Positions 1 to 6,406 of a DNA stretch of 10,360 nt are shown one piece after another; positions within the stretch are counted from its first letter, which is position 1; each line of letters starts with the position of its first letter. The notes under the pieces were generated by a model, which was not told where the DNA came from, made no database searches, and saw only the letters and a program-made list of their open reading frames with translations. Both the position numbers and the translations under genes were made by a program. Origin of the DNA: Fibrobacter sp. UBA1313 (GTDB lineage Bacteria; Fibrobacterota; Fibrobacteria; Fibrobacterales; Fibrobacteraceae); assembly GCA_002307115.1 (NCBI GenBank), contig DBTP01000108.1, forward strand, positions 1-10,360, in the 5' to 3' direction.

Positions 1-1
1 T

Positions 2-91
2 AAGGTTGATACTGCGAAGACCGCCACCGTGAAGCCTGCTACTCCAGTAGCCAAGACTGACACGACGAAAACTGCTCCGGTTAAGAAATAA
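2..91 (+). CDS. 3' end (partial) of an upstream gene; Lys/Thr/Ala/Pro-rich basic C-terminal tail (...KTATVKPATPVAKTDTTKTAPVKK*)
   Basis: Frame 2 is open from the window edge to TAA at 89-91. The low-complexity basic tail resembles C-terminal extensions of histone-like or nucleic-acid-binding proteins. A hairpin terminator follows. Confidence 0.3.
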   Translation, partial: KVDTAKTATVKPATPVAKTDTTKTAPVKK

Positions 92-2144: not shown

Positions 2145-3227
2145 ATGAGCTTATTGGATAAAATTAAGGGTGAATTTATTGATATCGTCGAACATTTAGA
2201 AGATGGCGGCGATACTTTGGTTTGGCGCTTTCCCCGCTACCAAAATGAAATTAAAAATGGGGCTCGATTGGTTGTCCGTGAAGGACAAATAGCAGTCCTT
2301 GTGAACGAAGGACAGTTGGCCGATATTTTCCATCCGGGAACTTATTCCTTAACCACTCAAAACCTACCGATTCTCTCCACACTCAAGGGCTGGAAATTTG
2401 GTTTTGATAGTCCATTTAAAGTCGAAGTTTATTTTGTAAGTAGTCGCCGATTTACAGATCAGAAATGGGGGACTCGCAATCCGGTGATGACGCGCGATGC
2501 TCAATTCGGGATGGTGCGTCTCCGCGCCTATGGATCTTATGTGCTTCAAGTGGCTGATGTGCATCAATTGATGTCTCAGATTGTGGGCACTCAAGCGCAG
2601 TTTGATGTGGATGAAATTACGGAACAAGTGCGCAATCTTGTGGTTTCTCGTTTTGGTGATATTATCGGGGATGCAAAAATTCCCGTTCTGGATTTGGCCC
2701 CTCATTACGATGAACTGGGACAATTAGTGGAAAAGAGAGTCCAAAAGGAAATTGCAGAATACGGTTTGAAGTGCTTCCAATTGCTGGTGGAAAATATTTC
2801 TGTCCCTGAAGAAGTGGAACGGAGCATGGATAAGCGTGCCAGTATGAGCGTTGTCGGTGAATCTGATTACACGCGCTATCAGATGGCGACTGCGACTGAA
2901 GTGGCGGCAGGGAACCCGGGAGGTGTCGCTGCGGGGGGGATGGGACTCGGTATGGGTTTTGGAATGGCGCAGCAAATGGTCAACCCCGCTCAGAATCCGC
3001 CGTCGCTCCCTAGTGGCGTGAATGAGGCGATTTGGTGGATTGCTCTGGAGGGTGTGAAGAACGGTCCCCACACGCTCGCTGCGCTTTCTCTGCTCAGTGC
3101 TTCCGGGAAGTTGAATCCAGAAACACTGGTGTGGAAACAAGGTATGGCGAATTGGATCCCGGCGCGTGAAGTGATTGAATTACGGTCTGTGTTCCCGATG
3201 GAACCCCCTCCGCTTCCGAAGGTATAA
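2145..3227 (+). CDS. SPFH/band-7 family protein of the COG4260 / Band_7_1 type (B. subtilis YdjI-like) with a Gly/Met-rich linker and a C-terminal GYF-like (DUF4339-type) domain
   Basis: 360 aa. N-terminus MSLLDKIKGEFIDIVEHLEDGGDTLVWRFPRYQNEIKNGARLVVREGQIAVLVNEGQLADIF...FTDQKWGTRNPVMTRD...LRAYGSYV is characteristic of the soluble SPFH/Band_7_1 family. The C-terminal ~50 aa AIWWIALEGVKNGPHTLAALSLLSASGKLNPETLVWKQGMANWIPAREV fit the GYF/DUF4339 pattern. GAGGA sits 5 nt upstream of the ATG. Confidence 0.8.
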   Translation: MSLLDKIKGEFIDIVEHLEDGGDTLVWRFPRYQNEIKNGARLVVREGQIAVLVNEGQLADIFHPGTYSLTTQNLPILSTLKGWKFGFDSPFKVEVYFVSSRRFTDQKWGTRNPVMTRDAQFGMVRLRAYGSYVLQVADVHQLMSQIVGTQAQFDVDEITEQVRNLVVSRFGDIIGDAKIPVLDLAPHYDELGQLVEKRVQKEIAEYGLKCFQLLVENISVPEEVERSMDKRASMSVVGESDYTRYQMATATEVAAGNPGGVAAGGMGLGMGFGMAQQMVNPAQNPPSLPSGVNEAIWWIALEGVKNGPHTLAALSLLSASGKLNPETLVWKQGMANWIPAREVIELRSVFPMEPPPLPKV

Positions 3228-3229
3228 TT

Positions 3230-3865
3230 ATGCCTATTTGCGTTCATTGTGGGGCTCCTTTGCGCGAGGGGCGTCCTGTTTGTGATTACTGTAAAGCGAC
3301 AAACGACGTGGATTTGTCGGGGCGCCATTATTTTACTACGCATCTTCCAGAGAAAGCACGCACCTGTCCACAATGCCATTCTGAAATGGAAGTGGTGGAT
3401 ATCGGCGTGCCTGGGAAACCGTTTTACTTAGATCGCTGTTCAACGTGTTTGGGAATTTTCTTTGATACGGGCGAGTTAGATGTTCTGGTGCACGAAACGA
3501 TTCAGGGCGTGGCGCATATCAATAATGTAAGGCTCTCGGCCTTGCGCACGGCGGCTCCAGAATCTTCAGAGATCGTTCGGTATCGTCCGTGCCCCGAATG
3601 CGGTAAACTGATGAACCGAGAAAATTACGGAACCTATTCGGGAATCATTTTGGATCGGTGTCGCGATCATGGTGTGTTTTTGGATGCAGGGGAACTGTAT
3701 CGAATTTTTCTTTGGGTTCGCGCTGGGGGAAGTTTGTTGAAACCCCCGCCAGAACCAGAACGCACAAAGCAGCCGCTTTCGCCGATGGAAATAGAAGAGG
3801 AAAATTCTACTTCGGTTTCTTTGATGGATGTGGTGATGGGAGTCTTCAAATTTTTGGGCGGTTGA
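3230..3865 (+). CDS. Multi-zinc-ribbon protein: an N-terminal CxxC...CxxC ribbon plus two tandem TFIIB-type ribbon repeats (YdjG-like)
   Basis: 211 aa. C4/C7...C18/C21. Then CPQCHSEM...LDRCSTCLGIFFDTGEL (aa 46-83), repeated as CPECGKLM...LDRCRDHGVFLDAGEL (aa 121-156). The Ser/Glu-rich C-terminus ends in a hydrophobic tail (VVMGVFKFLGG). The start is 2 nt after the SPFH gene stop (taattATG). Confidence 0.75.
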   Translation: MPICVHCGAPLREGRPVCDYCKATNDVDLSGRHYFTTHLPEKARTCPQCHSEMEVVDIGVPGKPFYLDRCSTCLGIFFDTGELDVLVHETIQGVAHINNVRLSALRTAAPESSEIVRYRPCPECGKLMNRENYGTYSGIILDRCRDHGVFLDAGELYRIFLWVRAGGSLLKPPPEPERTKQPLSPMEIEEENSTSVSLMDVVMGVFKFLGG

Positions 3866-3872
3866 AGTCCGT

Positions 3873-4958
3873 TTATTCCGTGGGGATTCCAAATCGTTTG
3901 AGATGGCAATAGGCTATTTCGCCAGTTTTCTCATCGCGAAGATGCAAACTCCCGCCTTCGCAGTAGCGCCAGTATTTGCAAGTGGCGCAGTCGCCTTTTT
4001 TGGTCCAAGAACGATCTCGCATCACTTGAAAACGATTGTTCCAGACGTCCATAAAATCATCGCGGTAAATGTTCCCTTGAATGTAATCTCCGCGCAAAGA
4101 GGGACAGGCCGAGATGGAGCCATCGGCGAGTACGGAACCGACATTGATTCCGGCGCGGCAGAAGAAAGGATTACTGCGCACTTGATTTTCATAGTCTCCG
4201 AGGAATCCTTCACAGCCGTAGTCGGCCCGGATTTTCCCCTGCAGGCGCGTTTCGCGGATAAAATCGAAAACGCGTTTAAATTCCAAATCACTCAATTTGA
4301 AAATGGGGTTTTCCTTGGCGCGGCCTTTGGGAAAAACCGTCGCGATCCGCCAGCGTTTGAGCTTTAGGTCGATAAGCATGTCCCGGATTTCGGGGAGCTC
4401 CGGCAGGTTTTCTTTGTTGACGCAGGTGACTACATCAAAGAGGAGCCCAGGCGTATGAGAGGCCCAGCGGATAGTATCGACCGCTTTTTCAAAAGAATGT
4501 TCGCGGCCACGGAAATGATCGTGAGAACGATGCAGACCATCAAGACTCACCGTCATGGAACGGAGCCCAGCCGTCAGTAAATTTTTAAACCGTGGCAACG
4601 TCATAGCAAATCCGTTGGTGACAAAGCCCCAGGGGAAACCGCGATCCATAAACGCTTTGCCTGCTTCCTCCAAATCCTTGCGCATCAGAGGTTCACCGCC
4701 GGTGACGACAATCAGGGTTCGCGATGGATTAACGTGTGGGCGAACGTTGTCGAGCACTTTTAAGAAGTCAGCGAGAGGCATATCGGGGTCGGCTTCGCAA
4801 CGACAATCACTGCCGCAGTGTAGACAATTCAGATTGCAGCGAAGCGTACATTCCCAAAAGAAATACGAAAGCGTATGGCTTTTCGCAAGGGAATGACGAT
4901 AAAAACGATGGACTTCAAGCGCGGCTTGCTTCTTGAAAGGAAGGACGTTCTGACTCAT
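3873..4958 (-). CDS. Radical SAM enzyme with a C-terminal SPASM/twitch auxiliary Fe-S domain (probable protein/peptide-modifying maturase)
   Basis: 361 aa. CxxxCxxC radical-SAM cluster motif (C-NLN-C-LH-C followed by GSDC). GGE-like SAM motif VTGGEPLM. The C-terminal Cys array CRAG...SAC...CATCKYWRYCEGG...YC is typical of SPASM domains. The N-terminal stretch before the cluster is short (about 45 aa), so there is no RRE-type leader-recognition domain. Confidence 0.85.
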   Translation of the reverse strand: MSQNVLPFKKQAALEVHRFYRHSLAKSHTLSYFFWECTLRCNLNCLHCGSDCRCEADPDMPLADFLKVLDNVRPHVNPSRTLIVVTGGEPLMRKDLEEAGKAFMDRGFPWGFVTNGFAMTLPRFKNLLTAGLRSMTVSLDGLHRSHDHFRGREHSFEKAVDTIRWASHTPGLLFDVVTCVNKENLPELPEIRDMLIDLKLKRWRIATVFPKGRAKENPIFKLSDLEFKRVFDFIRETRLQGKIRADYGCEGFLGDYENQVRSNPFFCRAGINVGSVLADGSISACPSLRGDYIQGNIYRDDFMDVWNNRFQVMRDRSWTKKGDCATCKYWRYCEGGSLHLRDEKTGEIAYCHLKRFGIPTE

Positions 4959-5998
4959 TATTTTTCTTCAGAGGTTTCGGAAGAGGAAGACTCTGTGGCA
5001 TCCGGGCAACGGTAGCATCCATCCCCTTCAACATAGATCAGAGAACTTGTGGATTCGTTAGGATTGATCGGGTATGAAATTCCATAAAGAGGAGCAAATT
5101 CGGTTAATACACAATTTGTTTTGTTCGAAATAGAACCTTCGCTCAGCGCGGAAGCCAGTTGGGCTTCCGTAATTTCCAAAGAGCAATCATCGTAGGAGGT
5201 GCGGCTCGAAGAAGATTTTGGAGTACTAGAAGATGAACTTGAAGAAACGCTGGAGGAGGATTGCGCTACCGATGATGAGGATTCGTCACCCGGGCAACGA
5301 TAGCATCCCACGCCTTCCTGATAGATAAGAGCTGGACCGGAGTTCACACTGGACGCATCGGAAGAATAAGGAACGCCATAGTCTGTGGCGACTTCCCCTA
5401 AACTGCAAAGTGCTTTGTCATAAATGGAGCCCTCACTCAGGGCTGCCTCTAAGGACGCTTCCGTAATCTCAAGGCTACAACCTTCAACAGAAGTGCTACT
5501 GGATGACGATGCCTGTTCACTGGAAGATGAATTCGTGGCAACGCTGGAAGAAGACGATGCCGAAGAGGAGGAGATTTCGTCATTCGGACAACGATAACAA
5601 CCCACACCATCTTCATAAATAAGCGTTGTGGAGGCGTTCACTTTGGCGATGGAATCGAACATCGCAGGCGAACCGTAAAGGGCAATAATGTTCCCTAAAG
5701 CACAGGTTGTCTTGTCCGTGATGTAACCATTGTCGAGAGCGGTTTGCAACTGCGCTTCCGTATATTCCAGAGAGCAAAGATCAAAAGTACTGGAGCTAGA
5801 AGAGGATGATTCGTTTGTCGCTGTGCTGGAGGATGTTTCTGTAGAAGAGGAGGATGGATCTCCACAGACATCGGAAGGACACCCGTACAAAGTGGCACTA
5901 TTGCTGGTCGATTCATCACACCCGGCCCAAAAGAATGCACACAGGGAAAGCAGTACTTTTTCCCACTTGGAACGAGATTTATTCAGAATGCGTTTCAT
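4958..5998 (-). CDS. Secreted, probably lipidated, Ser-rich protein with three tandem ~99-aa repeats, each holding a ~65-aa 4-Cys domain (C-x23-C-x34/35-C-x2-C) plus a poly-Ser linker
   Basis: 346 aa. Signal peptide MKRILNKSRSKWEKVLLSLCAFFWAG|C has a lipobox-like FWAGC. Repeats begin at C75, C174 and C272. Repeat consensus: CSLEITEAqLxxALseGsIxdKtxCxLgE...YG.pY...LIY.EGvGCYRCPxDE. The linkers are poly-Ser. The stop overlaps the rSAM start as TAATG (4956-4960). Confidence 0.8.
   Translation of the reverse strand: MKRILNKSRSKWEKVLLSLCAFFWAGCDESTSNSATLYGCPSDVCGDPSSSSTETSSSTATNESSSSSSSTFDLCSLEYTEAQLQTALDNGYITDKTTCALGNIIALYGSPAMFDSIAKVNASTTLIYEDGVGCYRCPNDEISSSSASSSSSVATNSSSSEQASSSSSTSVEGCSLEITEASLEAALSEGSIYDKALCSLGEVATDYGVPYSSDASSVNSGPALIYQEGVGCYRCPGDESSSSVAQSSSSVSSSSSSSTPKSSSSRTSYDDCSLEITEAQLASALSEGSISNKTNCVLTEFAPLYGISYPINPNESTSSLIYVEGDGCYRCPDATESSSSETSEEK
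4994..5782 (-). repeat. Three diverged tandem coding repeats of ~297 bp (units about 5486-5782, 5189-5485 and 4994-5188) inside the lipoprotein gene
   Basis: The periodicity is visible at DNA level (catccgggcaacggtagcatcc / cacccgggcaacgatagcatcc / cattcggacaacgataacaaccc, about 290 bp apart) and at protein level (Cys174 vs Cys75 = 99 aa; Cys272 vs Cys174 = 98 aa). Diverged and in-frame, so not a CRISPR array. Confidence 0.75.
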
Positions 5999-6082: not shown

Positions 6083-6406
6083 TCACGCATTTTTGCTGCT
6101 TTTGGCTAAGAAGCCGAGTACAATGAAGGAAATTACAATGGTTAGGATTAAATGAATGTCGGTCAGATTCGTTAAAAATTGACGGAGAAATCGTACGGCC
6201 TGGGAAGAAATGAATCCATAGCCGGCGCCGCACAAGATTACAAAAAATACAAATCGTCCAAGAAACGGAAGCTTTTGGGTCAATTTGCGCGCATATTGGT
6301 TGATGGTGCCACCGTAAATCGTGAGAATTGTGGAGATGAGACCCACGGAAATGGAGACTAAATGCAAGCGTAAAAAATCAGCAAAGTCACGGATGTAATT
6401 TTCCAT
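6083..6406 (-). CDS. Small integral membrane protein, about 3 predicted TM helices (hypothetical; possibly DUF3392-like)
   Basis: 107 aa with three hydrophobic stretches (LHLVSISVGLISTILTIYGG, FVFFVILCGAGYGFISS, IHLILTIVISFIVLGFL). It sits directly upstream (84 bp) and on the same strand as the lipoprotein-rSAM pair. TATATT lies at -14..-9 of its ATG, with a perfect TATAAT about 20 nt further upstream. Confidence 0.55.
   Translation of the reverse strand: MENYIRDFADFLRLHLVSISVGLISTILTIYGGTINQYARKLTQKLPFLGRFVFFVILCGAGYGFISSQAVRFLRQFLTNLTDIHLILTIVISFIVLGFLAKSSKNA

What the first reader, a model, noticed from the sequence alone, without database searches (positions are those of the whole stretch)
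4994..5782. Novel-looking ~65-aa 4-Cys domain repeated three times, separated by poly-Ser linkers
Each repeat has an invariant Cys quartet (C75/C99/C134/C137, C174/C198/C232/C235, C272/C296/C328/C331). It also conserves CSLE(I/Y)TEAxL...AL..G.I..K..C.LGE...YG.PY...LIY.EG.GCYRCP. A degenerate half-copy (LYGCPSDVCGDP) follows the signal peptide. The DNA repeats are about 297 bp and diverged, so the duplication is old and selection has maintained the copies. The linkers are almost pure Ser (for example SSSSASSSSSVATNSSSSEQASSSSS), typical of extended, possibly glycosylated, cell-surface stalks. I do not recognise the domain as any named family. The C-terminal CYRCP with flanking D/E might be a modification or metal-binding site.
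Basis: seen in the sequence. Interest (0 to 1): 0.7.

Follow-up and report, generated by a model that had tools for sequence, protein, structure and literature searches.

The report
Lipoprotein repeats carrying radical-SAM target motifs
The three-fold repeated 4-cysteine domain is real and has no known relatives, but its telling feature is an invariant Tyr-Gly site in each repeat, which marks this lipoprotein as the probable substrate of the radical SAM enzyme encoded next to it, most likely a backbone-editing "tyramine splicease".

Summary
ORF 4958-5998 (-) encodes a 346-aa lipoprotein with three diverged ~68-aa repeats, each with four invariant Cys, joined by near-pure Ser linkers. The domain matches no Pfam, NCBIfam or PDB fold. 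An exhaustive HMM search of 1.84 billion proteins finds it only in one Fibrobacteraceae lineage, with 1, 2 or 3 copies.

The interpretation needs changing. The gene overlaps by 1 nt (TAATG) with a TIGR04133 "rSAM/lipoprotein system" radical SAM/SPASM gene. In 80 loci from several phyla this enzyme follows one or more otherwise unrelated lipoprotein genes. These share only a lipobox and x-Y-G-x-P sites: YG occurs 286 times against 65 expected, and YGxP is 22-fold enriched. CxxC is not shared; Bacteroidales partners have no Cys beyond the lipobox.

XYG is the published target of tyramine spliceases. The nearest enzyme families, TIGR04103 and TIGR03913, also have XYG partners.

Best reading: an orphan, probably disulfide-stabilised domain displaying splice sites on a Ser-rich stalk. 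The chemistry is inferred, not shown, and may already be published in a paper I could not read.

The parts
4958..5998 (-). Lipoprotein gene, 346 aa, the probable substrate. Layout: signal peptide, N-terminal YG site, then 3 x (Ser linker + 4-Cys domain), then an acidic Ser-rich tail.
   Evidence: Orthologues P0002-P0004 and syntenic loci L083-L085.
5918..5998 (-). Lipoprotein signal peptide MKRILNKSRSKWEKVLLSLCAFFWAG|C27 (lipobox). It belongs to the unusually conserved signal-peptide type of Fibrobacter partner lipoproteins. A possible second role as a leader-like recognition helix is inference only.
   Evidence: It is 46% identical on average to 82 other partner signal peptides. Across the family, the last 20 signal-peptide residues are 58.7% identical pairwise, against 15% and 12% for mature residues +1..20 and +21..40.
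5864..5890 (-). N-terminal site L37-Y38-G39-C-P-S-D-V-C45, 11 residues after the lipobox Cys. It is a predicted XYG modification site followed by a Cys pair.
   Evidence: Similar LYGCPxDxC motifs occur at +10..+12 in many Fibrobacter partners without the 4-Cys domain.
5576..5785 (-). Repeat 1 of the 4-Cys domain (aa 72-141; C75, C99, C134, C137).
   Evidence: AF2 model pLDDT 67.8, with a strand-helix-loop-hairpin topology.
5666..5680 (-). Repeat 1 YG site L107-Y108-G109-S-P, between C2 and C3.
   Evidence: Y and G are invariant in all 12 repeats.
5282..5491 (-). Repeat 2 of the 4-Cys domain (aa 170-239; C174, C198, C232, C235).
   Evidence: AF2 model pLDDT 65.7. Residues 33-51, which include YGVP, have pLDDT below 50.
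5369..5383 (-). Repeat 2 YG site D206-Y207-G208-V-P.
   Evidence: Note that a DYG site was not spliced by RcsX in RcsA (PMC11626197).
4991..5197 (-). Repeat 3 of the 4-Cys domain (aa 268-336; C272, C296, C328, C331).
5075..5089 (-). Repeat 3 YG site L304-Y305-G306-I-S. The Pro at +2 is replaced by Ser.
5786..5863 (-). Ser/Thr-rich linker 1 (GDPSSSSTETSSSTATNESSSSSSST).
5492..5575 (-). Ser-rich linker 2.
5198..5281 (-). Ser-rich linker 3.
3873..4958 (-). Radical SAM/SPASM enzyme, TIGR04133 family, 361 aa, no signal peptide. Its ATG overlaps the lipoprotein TAA (TAATG). It is the predicted modifying enzyme.
   Evidence: TIGR04133 scores 558 bits against a cutoff of 425. Pfam Radical_SAM and SPASM both hit. 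Overlap shown.
4815..4838 (-). rSAM cluster motif C41-N-L-N-C45-L-H-C48.
   Evidence: These Cys are invariant in alignment A1.
3906..4160 (-). SPASM region of the rSAM (C267, C285, C324, C327, C333, C351). It contains the ACPSL motif shared with splicease-type enzymes.

Best explanation
The 346-aa protein is a cell-envelope lipoprotein and the dedicated substrate of the translationally coupled TIGR04133 radical SAM/SPASM enzyme. The 4-Cys repeat is a lineage-specific scaffold that is probably disulfide-stabilised. Each copy presents one invariant x-Tyr-Gly site in a flexible loop between Cys2 and Cys3, and a fourth site lies 11 residues after the lipidated Cys.

Proposed sequence of events:
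1. In the cytoplasm the rSAM acts on the unfolded pre-lipoprotein at the XYG sites. The unusually conserved signal peptide may help recognition.
2. The most likely chemistry is that of tyramine spliceases (spliceotide 'X proteins'). [quoted passage not shown]
3. The protein is exported by Sec and lipidated at Cys27, and its 14 mature Cys pair into disulfides.
4. The Ser-rich linkers hold three ketoamide-bearing loops away from the membrane. There the electrophilic ketoamides could inhibit Ser/Cys proteases, as free spliceotides do.

What is shown: the anatomy, the gene coupling, the family-wide YG enrichment, and the relatedness of the enzyme to splicease-type families.

What is inferred: that YG is the site acted on, the splicing chemistry, the disulfides, surface exposure and protease inhibition.
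For: Gene coupling
- The lipoprotein stop and rSAM start overlap by 1 nt.
- The same arrangement occurs in orthologues.

Enzyme identity
- The rSAM scores 558 bits against TIGR04133 'rSAM_w_lipo'.

Partner proteins
- In 80 genome loci the TIGR04133 gene is preceded by one to six lipoprotein genes.
- The Bacteroidales partners tested match TIGR04134. The Fibrobacter/Fibrobacteres partners tested and the window protein do not. The only common features are a lipobox and YG sites.

YG enrichment
- YG dipeptide: 200 observed against 44 expected in Fibrobacter-type partners, and 86 against 21 in the others. The reverse dipeptide GY occurs only 25 and 5 times.
- 122 of 129 partners have at least one YG.
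- YGxP occurs at 5.4 per 1000 aa against 0.25 in background ORFs.
- The site consensus is [V/C/A][P/A][L/E/M/D/K]-Y-G-[V/C/A/T]-P.
- The first site is usually +6..+12 after the lipobox Cys.
- Some partners are little more than tandem 13-aa KYG(V/A/I)P units (L064, L077, L081).
- Y38/G39 are invariant in all 12 copies of the 4-Cys repeat and lie at or in the low-confidence loop of both AF2 models.

Link to spliceases
- Published spliceases excise tyramine at XYG (PMC11414181, PMC10533398, PMC11626197).
- A Nostoc Nif11 precursor next to a TIGR04103 enzyme and a small downstream ORF in the Y-protein position ends in ...SIALYGLPPELF. This is the same x-L-Y-G-x-P as the window's IALYGSP and ATLYGCP.
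- PlpX is described as IPR026482, acting on Nif11-type RiPPs (PMC11002830, PMC10849128).
- TIGR04103 and TIGR03913 are the best non-self NCBIfam hits of the window enzyme, at 140 and 131 bits over the full length.
- TIGR03913 partners (DUF1842/1843) carry AAMYGVAIQ, MPMYGVGLQ and TPYGVAIH.
- In an NJ tree, TIGR04133 groups with TIGR04103, TIGR03913 and relatives against NirJ, TIGR04347, TIGR04053 and MftC in 96.5% of 200 bootstraps.
- Shared motifs are xxG(F/Y)xGxYE and (G/A)CPS(L/I).

Disulfides
- Mature Cys counts in Fibrobacter-type partners are even in 68 cases and odd in 17 (p=2e-8). The window protein has 14.
- Characterised spliceotide cores RcsA and RasA also carry a disulfide.
Against: - No chemistry was or could be tested here.
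- The window enzyme is only about 29% identical to the TIGR04103 and TIGR03913 members and scores far below their cutoffs (140 against 725; 131 against 592).
- In reciprocal HMM scans TIGR04133 ranks only 3rd-4th for splicease-type proteins, about level with AhbD and TIGR04053. The tree used only four outgroups.
- TIGR04133 lacks the fourth Cys of the SPASM CX2CX5CX3C motif that the splicease-type proteins keep. A different reaction at Tyr-Gly is therefore possible.
- The identification TIGR04103 = IPR026482 = PlpX family rests on matching names and my memory. It was not checked against the PlpX sequence.
- Repeat 2 has DYG, a site type that RcsX left unmodified in RcsA. Repeat 3 lacks the Pro.
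- Protease inhibition and surface exposure are extrapolations.
Confidence: 0.5

Rival explanations
1. The rSAM acts on the same x-Y-G-x-P sites but does different chemistry. Candidates are a short Tyr-centred C-C or C-O crosslink (as in three-residue cyclophanes or tryglysin W-G-K), epimerisation, or beta-hydroxylation. The 4-Cys domain would still be the display scaffold.
For: - The YG enrichment identifies a site, not a reaction.
- The enzyme is only about 29% identical to splicease-type proteins.
- It lacks one SPASM Cys that those proteins keep.
- Reciprocal HMM ranks are not exclusive.
- Other SPASM maturases (WgkB, DynA, PapB, StsB) also give weak hits.
Against: - The two nearest families both pair with XYG substrates, and at least the Nif11/TIGR04103 type is the published splicease architecture.
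- The flanking consensus (A/P)-L-Y-G-x-P resembles known splice sites.
- The residue after Gly is too variable (V/C/A/P/I/T) for a side-chain-specific crosslink partner.
Confidence: 0.25
2. The repeats are an ordinary structural or adhesive Cys-rich module. Only the N-terminal LYGCP site (if any) is modified, and the internal YG is conserved for folding reasons.
For: - Y and G are often conserved in turns.
- Repeat 3 lacks the +2 Pro, and repeat 2 has an acidic X residue.
- The N-terminal site alone is what most Fibrobacter paralogues share in position.
Against: - Many partners with unrelated mature regions carry several YG sites far from the N-terminus, such as ALYGAP, ALYGVP and KYGVP repeats.
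- In the one-repeat relative the domain keeps ALYGSP and IYGSP, and a further PLYGVP is appended at the C-terminus.
- The YG lies at or in the low-confidence loop in both models, not in the core strands.
Confidence: 0.15
3. One reading: the Cys quartet, and CYRCP in particular, is the rSAM target (thioether or sactionine-type link) or a metal-binding site.
For: - Four invariant Cys per repeat, including a CxxC.
- Many SPASM enzymes make Cys-derived thioethers (established knowledge).
- Weak NCBIfam hits to sacti/ranthipeptide maturases.
Against: - TIGR04133 enzymes are 51-68% identical across phyla, yet most Bacteroidales and Fibrobacteres-type partners have no Cys after the lipobox. Cys therefore cannot be the family's substrate atom.
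- CxxC is not conserved among Fibrobacter partners.
- Cys counts are overwhelmingly even (68:17), as expected for disulfides in exported proteins.
- The protein is exported through a lipoprotein signal peptide, where Cys4 metal sites are unusual (inference).
Confidence: 0.07

Closest known systems
rSAM/lipoprotein system, TIGR04133 (rSAM_w_lipo) + TIGR04134 (lipo_with_rSAM), NCBIfam 'hypothetical equivalogs'
   Same: - The window enzyme is a full-length TIGR04133 member (558 bits).
- It is preceded by a lipoprotein gene, as in Bacteroidales, Treponema and Parabacteroides. RefSeq annotates the Treponema and Parabacteroides pairs as 'radical SAM-associated putative lipoprotein' + 'TIGR04133 family radical SAM/SPASM protein'.
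   Different: - The window lipoprotein does not match TIGR04134 at all (no hit at E<=10).
- Its mature part is a different, Cys-rich, triplicated domain on Ser linkers. TIGR04134 proteins resemble a CarboxypepD_reg-like beta-domain and usually have no extra Cys.
- No function is attached to either family name.
Spliceotides: tyramine spliceases (PlpX/PcpX/RhaX/RcsX/RasX) and their XYG precursors (Morinaka 2018; Scott 2022; PMC11414181, PMC10533398, PMC11626197)
   Same: - An rSAM/SPASM enzyme sits next to a substrate with one or more XYG sites. X is often Leu or Met, frequently followed by x-Pro.
- It is a binary enzyme-substrate layout without a Y protein, like the non-cyanobacterial types.
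- There are Cys pairs around the site.
- The nearest curated enzyme families are splicease-type.
   Different: - The substrate is a 346-aa lipoprotein with a Sec/lipobox signal peptide instead of a Nif11/NHLP-type leader.
- The sites sit inside folded repeat domains.
- The enzyme is a separate family (about 29% identity; 140 bits against the 725-bit cutoff for TIGR04103).
- It lacks one SPASM Cys.
- Splicing has not been demonstrated for this family in any paper I could read.
GDL-motif peptide system, TIGR03913 rSAM with DUF1842/DUF1843 proteins
   Same: - It is the second-closest enzyme family (131 bits).
- Its substrates are proteins, not short peptides, and carry MYGV/PYGV sites.
   Different: - The substrates are cytoplasmic-looking proteins, without a signal peptide or Cys-rich domains.
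- The enzyme has an extra C-terminal extension (491 aa).
Other rSAM/SPASM enzymes that modify exported proteins before export (anSME on sulfatases, QhpD on QhpC; established knowledge)
   Same: A cytoplasmic SPASM enzyme acts on a protein that is then exported.
   Different: Target residues and motifs differ (Cys/Ser-x-P-x-R; Cys-Asp/Glu thioethers). There is no close sequence relationship: the anSME family is absent from the top 25 hits.

Membership tests
TIGR04133 rSAM/SPASM (the neighbouring enzyme) | Whole-protein HMM score above the curated cutoff (425 bits) | tested here: met
   558.2 bits, profile positions 1-349 of 350.
TIGR04133 rSAM/SPASM (the neighbouring enzyme) | CxxxCxxC radical SAM motif and a SPASM Cys-rich C-terminal domain | tested here: met
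   C41/C45/C48. Pfam SPASM covers residues 267-328. C249, C267, C285, C324, C327, C333 and C351 are invariant.
TIGR04133 rSAM/SPASM (the neighbouring enzyme) | Encoded next to a lipoprotein gene | tested here: met
   1-nt overlap with the lipoprotein ORF. A lipoprotein-like ORF lies upstream in most of the 80 loci.
TIGR04134 radical SAM-associated putative lipoprotein | HMM score of at least 39.8 bits | tested here: not met
   No hit for the whole protein or any single repeat at E<=10. Positive controls from Bacteroidales score 62-101 bits.
TIGR04134 radical SAM-associated putative lipoprotein | Lipoprotein signal peptide, and a position directly upstream of TIGR04133 | tested here: met
   Lipobox FWAG|C27 and gene overlap.
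Spliceotide precursor ('A protein') | One or more XYG sites next to a splicease-type rSAM | tested here: met
   LYG(38), LYG(108), DYG(207), LYG(305). YG is invariant in the repeats. Enrichment is family-wide.
Spliceotide precursor ('A protein') | [quoted passage not shown] | not testable with these tools
   Requires co-expression and MS.
Spliceotide precursor ('A protein') | Nif11/NHLP-type or other RiPP leader peptide | tested here: not met
   The N-terminus is a lipoprotein signal peptide, and no Pfam or NCBIfam leader family hits. The signal peptide is, however, unusually conserved.
Tyramine splicease, TIGR04103 (nif11-class peptide rSAM maturase 3; PlpX reported as IPR026482) | HMM score of at least 725 bits | tested here: not met
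   140.5 bits. It is a sister family, not a member.
Tyramine splicease, TIGR04103 (nif11-class peptide rSAM maturase 3; PlpX reported as IPR026482) | Phylogenetic grouping with validated spliceases | tested here: inconclusive
   The NJ tree groups TIGR04133 with TIGR04103 and TIGR03913 at 96.5% bootstrap against 4 outgroups. No experimentally validated splicease sequence was available, and the reciprocal HMM ranks are not exclusive.
Sactipeptide/ranthipeptide-type Cys-crosslinked substrate | Donor Cys conserved in the substrates of the enzyme family | tested here: not met
   Most Bacteroidales and Fibrobacteres-type partners have 0 Cys after the lipobox.
Any known disulfide-rich adhesin domain or carbohydrate-binding module | Significant sequence or fold match | tested here: not met
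   - Pfam and NCBIfam: none.
- Exhaustive HMM: own clade only.
- The models are of modest confidence, so a fold match could have been missed.

The most novel reading that the evidence does not exclude
TIGR04133 is a tyramine splicease whose natural substrates are whole lipoproteins. Fibrobacter and its relatives, Bacteroidales, Treponema and others would then decorate their envelope with membrane-anchored proteins carrying alpha-ketoamide warheads. In this window, three of these sit in disulfide-locked loops on Ser-rich stalks, plus one next to the lipid anchor, forming a tethered multi-headed protease inhibitor. The conserved lipoprotein signal peptide would double as the leader recognised by the enzyme. 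If this has not been described, it gives a long-orphan and very widespread rSAM system both a function and a new biological role for ribosomal beta-amino acids.
Probability: 0.3. Interest if true: 0.8.

Novelty: new variant of a known kind. Interest (0 to 1): 0.6.

Why it matters
The TIGR04133/TIGR04134 pair has been a curated but functionless "rSAM/lipoprotein system". It has thousands of members in gut, rumen and sediment bacteria: about 7,900 protein clusters scored E<=1e-40.

The window supplies an informative variant. Its mature part is unrelated to TIGR04134, yet it keeps the lipobox and the x-Y-G-x-P sites, which points to what the enzyme recognises. If the chemistry is tyramine splicing, ketoamide beta-residues would not be confined to small secreted RiPPs. 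They would be built into envelope lipoproteins of major fibre-degrading and gut anaerobes.

This is directly testable by looking for -135.06 Da per site. It would suggest a surface defence against proteases and new splice-tag scaffolds for protein engineering.

The 4-Cys domain itself is an orphan fold candidate that varies in copy number (1, 2 or 3) between close relatives.

Tried and rejected
- Pfam and NCBIfam scans of the whole protein, the single repeats and the N-terminus gave nothing. The only matches were noise: c-di-GMP motif at E=0.024 and cyclodeaminase at E=0.09.
- The exhaustive HMM hit P0126 (2149 aa, 11 stretches) was rejected. It matches only profile positions 11-27 to a repeated 'AQISSALSDGSITSS' and has no Cys pattern.
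- Literature searches for TIGR04133/TIGR04134 gave one unrelated paper.
- Combinations of rSAM, SPASM, lipoprotein, Fibrobacter and Bacteroid, and 'splicease' with 'lipoprotein', returned nothing relevant.
- Scott et al. 2022 (Chem 8:2659) is not held. I therefore could not check whether this family is among their 939 predicted systems.
- No splicease sequences were found in the supplements that are held.
- Linkage of the flanking genes (DUF3392, zinc-ribbon, SPFH, GH31, FolE) to the system was rejected. They are conserved only in close orthologues, not across the 80 loci.
- Promoter and terminator scans were no better than shuffled sequence.
- Cys pairing could not be read from the models, because no coordinates are exposed.
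Full report
**Observation.**
ORF 4958-5998 on the minus strand encodes 346 aa. The Cys positions are exactly those reported. Also present are C20, the lipobox Cys27 (FWAG|C), C40 and C45. Coordinates 4994-5782 correspond to aa 73-335.

I aligned the three window repeats with nine repeats from relatives. Twenty columns are invariant: the four Cys, the L-E..E..L..A...G.I..K core, L55, Y57, G62, R65, P67, and also Y38-G39.

The repeats are 46-53% identical. Between repeats dS is saturated and dN is about 0.44. Against an orthologue, the domains have dN/dS of about 0.17. The DNA period is 288-297 bp. Ser makes up 88 of 346 residues.

**How unusual the domain is.**
There is no Pfam or NCBIfam match, even at E<=10 and for single repeats. 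A word-indexed search of 5.8 billion proteins found four proteins:
- the window protein itself;
- two three-repeat orthologues;
- a two-repeat form whose second repeat has an R2 body and an R3 tail, which suggests unequal crossing-over.

An exhaustive profile search of 1.84 billion cluster representatives added only P0125. This one-repeat protein is closely similar to the one in MAG locus L003 (Fibrobacteraceae). One spurious hit was also returned.

**Context.**
The lipoprotein's TAA overlaps the ATG of the next gene (TAATG). That gene encodes a 361-aa radical SAM/SPASM protein scoring 558 bits against TIGR04133 'rSAM_w_lipo', whose cutoff is 425. Orthologous contigs keep this overlap. The other neighbours are conserved only among close relatives.

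TIGR04133 is very common and highly conserved. The best 120 hits listed are 58-97% identical, and members from other phyla in the alignment are 51-68% identical.

**What the partners share.**
I fetched 80 genome loci encoding TIGR04133. They come from Fibrobacter, other Fibrobacterota, Bacteroidales, Neomarinimicrobiota, Hydrogenedentota and others. Treponema and Parabacteroides examples came from the plasmid collection. I then read the upstream ORFs.

In most loci there is at least one lipoprotein gene upstream. Fibrobacter loci carry arrays of up to six. The mature regions are unrelated to each other:
- The Bacteroidales partners tested match TIGR04134 (62-101 bits) and weakly resemble CarboxypepD_reg.
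- The Fibrobacter/Fibrobacteres partners tested and the window protein match nothing.

The common features are a lipobox and Tyr-Gly sites:
- YG occurs 200 times against 44 expected in Fibrobacter-type partners, and 86 against 21 in the rest.
- The reversed dipeptide GY occurs only 25 and 5 times.
- 122 of 129 partners have at least one YG.
- YGxP is 22-fold enriched over background ORFs.
- The site consensus is [V/C/A][P/A][L/E/M/D/K]-Y-G-[V/C/A/T]-P.
- The first site usually lies 6-12 residues after the lipidated Cys.
- Some partners (L064, L077, L081) are essentially tandem 13-residue KYG(V/A/I)P units.

By contrast, most Bacteroidales partners have no Cys beyond the lipobox. The CxxC of the window domain therefore cannot be what this enzyme family recognises.

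In the window protein the sites are LYGCP (aa 37-41, 11 residues after Cys27), LYGSP (107-111), DYGVP (206-210) and LYGIS (304-308). It recurs as LYGCPDDIC or LYGCPPDIC in paralogues that lack the 4-Cys domain.

**Link to known chemistry.**
XYG is the defining target of tyramine spliceases. These rSAM/SPASM enzymes excise a tyramine equivalent (-135.06 Da) from Tyr. [quoted passage not shown] PlpX is described as a member of IPR026482 acting on Nif11-type precursors.

The best non-self NCBIfam hits of the window enzyme are TIGR04103 'nif11-class peptide radical SAM maturase 3' (140 bits) and TIGR03913 'GDL motif peptide-associated' maturase (131 bits). Both align over the full length.

I retrieved examples of both families from the plasmid collection:
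- A Nostoc locus has a Nif11 precursor ending ...SIALYGLPPELF, a TIGR04103 enzyme (853 bits) and a 71-aa ORF in the Y-protein position.
- A Burkholderia TIGR03913 locus has DUF1842/1843 proteins with AAMYGVAIQ, MPMYGVGLQ and TPYGVAIH.

So both nearest families pair with XYG substrates, and the flanks resemble the window's IALYGSP and ATLYGCP.

A 15-sequence NJ tree groups TIGR04133 with these families against NirJ, TIGR04347, TIGR04053 and MftC in 96.5% of 200 bootstraps. Shared motifs include xxG(F/Y)xGxYE and (G/A)CPS(L/I).

The link has limits:
- Identity is only about 29%.
- Reciprocal HMM ranks are not exclusive.
- TIGR04133 lacks the fourth Cys of CX2CX5CX3C.
- I had no validated splicease sequence.
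- Equating TIGR04103 with IPR026482 rests on names and memory.

**Mechanism proposed.**
Inferred steps are marked.
1. The cytoplasmic rSAM, which has no signal peptide, modifies the unfolded pre-lipoprotein at XYG sites. The modification is most likely tyramine excision (inferred).
2. The signal peptide may act as the recognition helix. In Fibrobacter-type partners its last 20 residues are 58.7% identical pairwise, against 12-15% for the adjacent mature sequence. Binary spliceases are reported to need a leader helix. This role is inferred.
3. Sec export and lipidation at Cys27 follow (established pathway; applied here by inference).
4. The 14 mature Cys form disulfides. This is inferred from the 68:17 excess of even Cys counts, p=2e-8. 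Spliceotide cores also carry a disulfide.
5. The Ser-rich linkers space three loops bearing ketoamides. These could inhibit Ser/Cys proteases, as free spliceotides do (inferred).

**Rivals.**
- The enzyme may perform different chemistry at the same YG sites.
- The repeats may be merely structural, with only the N-terminal site modified.

**Novelty.**
The rSAM/lipoprotein pairing is already curated as TIGR04133/04134, and tyramine splicing is published. A 2022 survey reportedly screened rSAM-SPASM neighbourhoods for YG-rich ORFs. It predicted 939 systems in 189 genera. I could not read it, and no held paper connects spliceases with lipoproteins.

The system-level idea may therefore already be known. 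What is new here is a partner type outside TIGR04134, with an orphan triplicated 4-Cys domain that embeds the site. I rate it a new variant of a known kind, interest 0.6.

Noticed in passing
L013 1134-3928; also L005, L009, L015, L018, L020, L031, L034, L043, L044: Fibrobacter loci carry tandem arrays of 2-6 lipoprotein genes upstream of one TIGR04133 gene. The signal peptides are near-identical (consensus FYKHWKKIALALTAFFWA[G/S]C), but the mature regions are hypervariable and Cys-rich. The pattern looks like a diversifying paralogue family behind a constant 'leader'.
   Followed up: partly
L089 2607-2996 (Treponema saccharophilum); L055 2540-, L061 2141-: In some partners the YG follows the lipobox Cys directly (..LTSC|YGMPEN, ..FAAC|YGTVEG). 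The X of the XYG site would then be the lipidated Cys itself, which raises the question of how modification and lipidation would coexist.
   Followed up: no
L077 3711-4004; L064 3546-3986; L081 3504-3995: Fibrobacteres/Fibrobacteria MAG partners are short, Cys-free lipoproteins made of tandem ~13-aa units, each with [K/R]YG[V/A/I/T]P (for example KDSVAAKYGVITPP x3).
   Followed up: partly
L058 3605-3835, L062 1864-2100, L069 3679-3909, L073 3746-3976, L082 3751-3981: Bacteroidales loci often have a second, 76-78-aa lipoprotein ending in ..AMYGVRPT(E/Q).. between the TIGR04134-type gene and the rSAM. It is a minimal one-site partner.
   Followed up: no
window 3873-4958 (-), rSAM aa 324-337: TIGR04133 has C324-x2-C327-x5-C333 but Ser/Gly where the fourth Cys of the SPASM CX2CX5CX3C motif sits in the TIGR04103 and TIGR03913 proteins. 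It has an extra invariant Cys249 upstream (YGCEGF). The ligation of one auxiliary cluster may therefore differ.
   Followed up: partly
P0004 / L085 1450-2193: A close orthologue has two repeats instead of three. Its second repeat has an R2-type body and the R3-type tail (CYRCPDATESSSSETSEEK), consistent with unequal recombination between repeats. The more distant relative P0125/L003 has one repeat plus a C-terminal PLYGVPMDD site.
   Followed up: partly
window 5915-5917 onward (aa 28-30, DES after Cys27): Acidic residues directly follow the lipobox Cys (C-D-E-S). Many Fibrobacter partners have C-D-D-S or C-E-D-E. This resembles the Bacteroidetes lipoprotein surface-export signal as I recall it, and was not tested here.
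   Followed up: no
window 6083-6406 (-): A DUF3392 membrane protein (107 aa) lies 84 bp upstream on the same strand. It is conserved in the close orthologous contigs but not in the other TIGR04133 loci, so it is probably not part of the system.
   Followed up: yes
window 2145-3227 (+) and 3230-3865 (+): An SPFH/Band-7 protein with a C-terminal GYF_2 domain is followed 3 bp later by a multi-zinc-ribbon protein. The pair is convergent with the rSAM gene and conserved in the orthologous contigs.
   Followed up: no
L088 2998-4152 (Agathobacter rectalis): An rSAM/SPASM protein scores best against TIGR04103, TIGR03913 and TIGR04133 (235, 225 and 185 bits), all below cutoff. It sits next to an MFS transporter, and no YG-containing neighbour is annotated. 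It may be a further uncharacterised branch of this clade.
   Followed up: no
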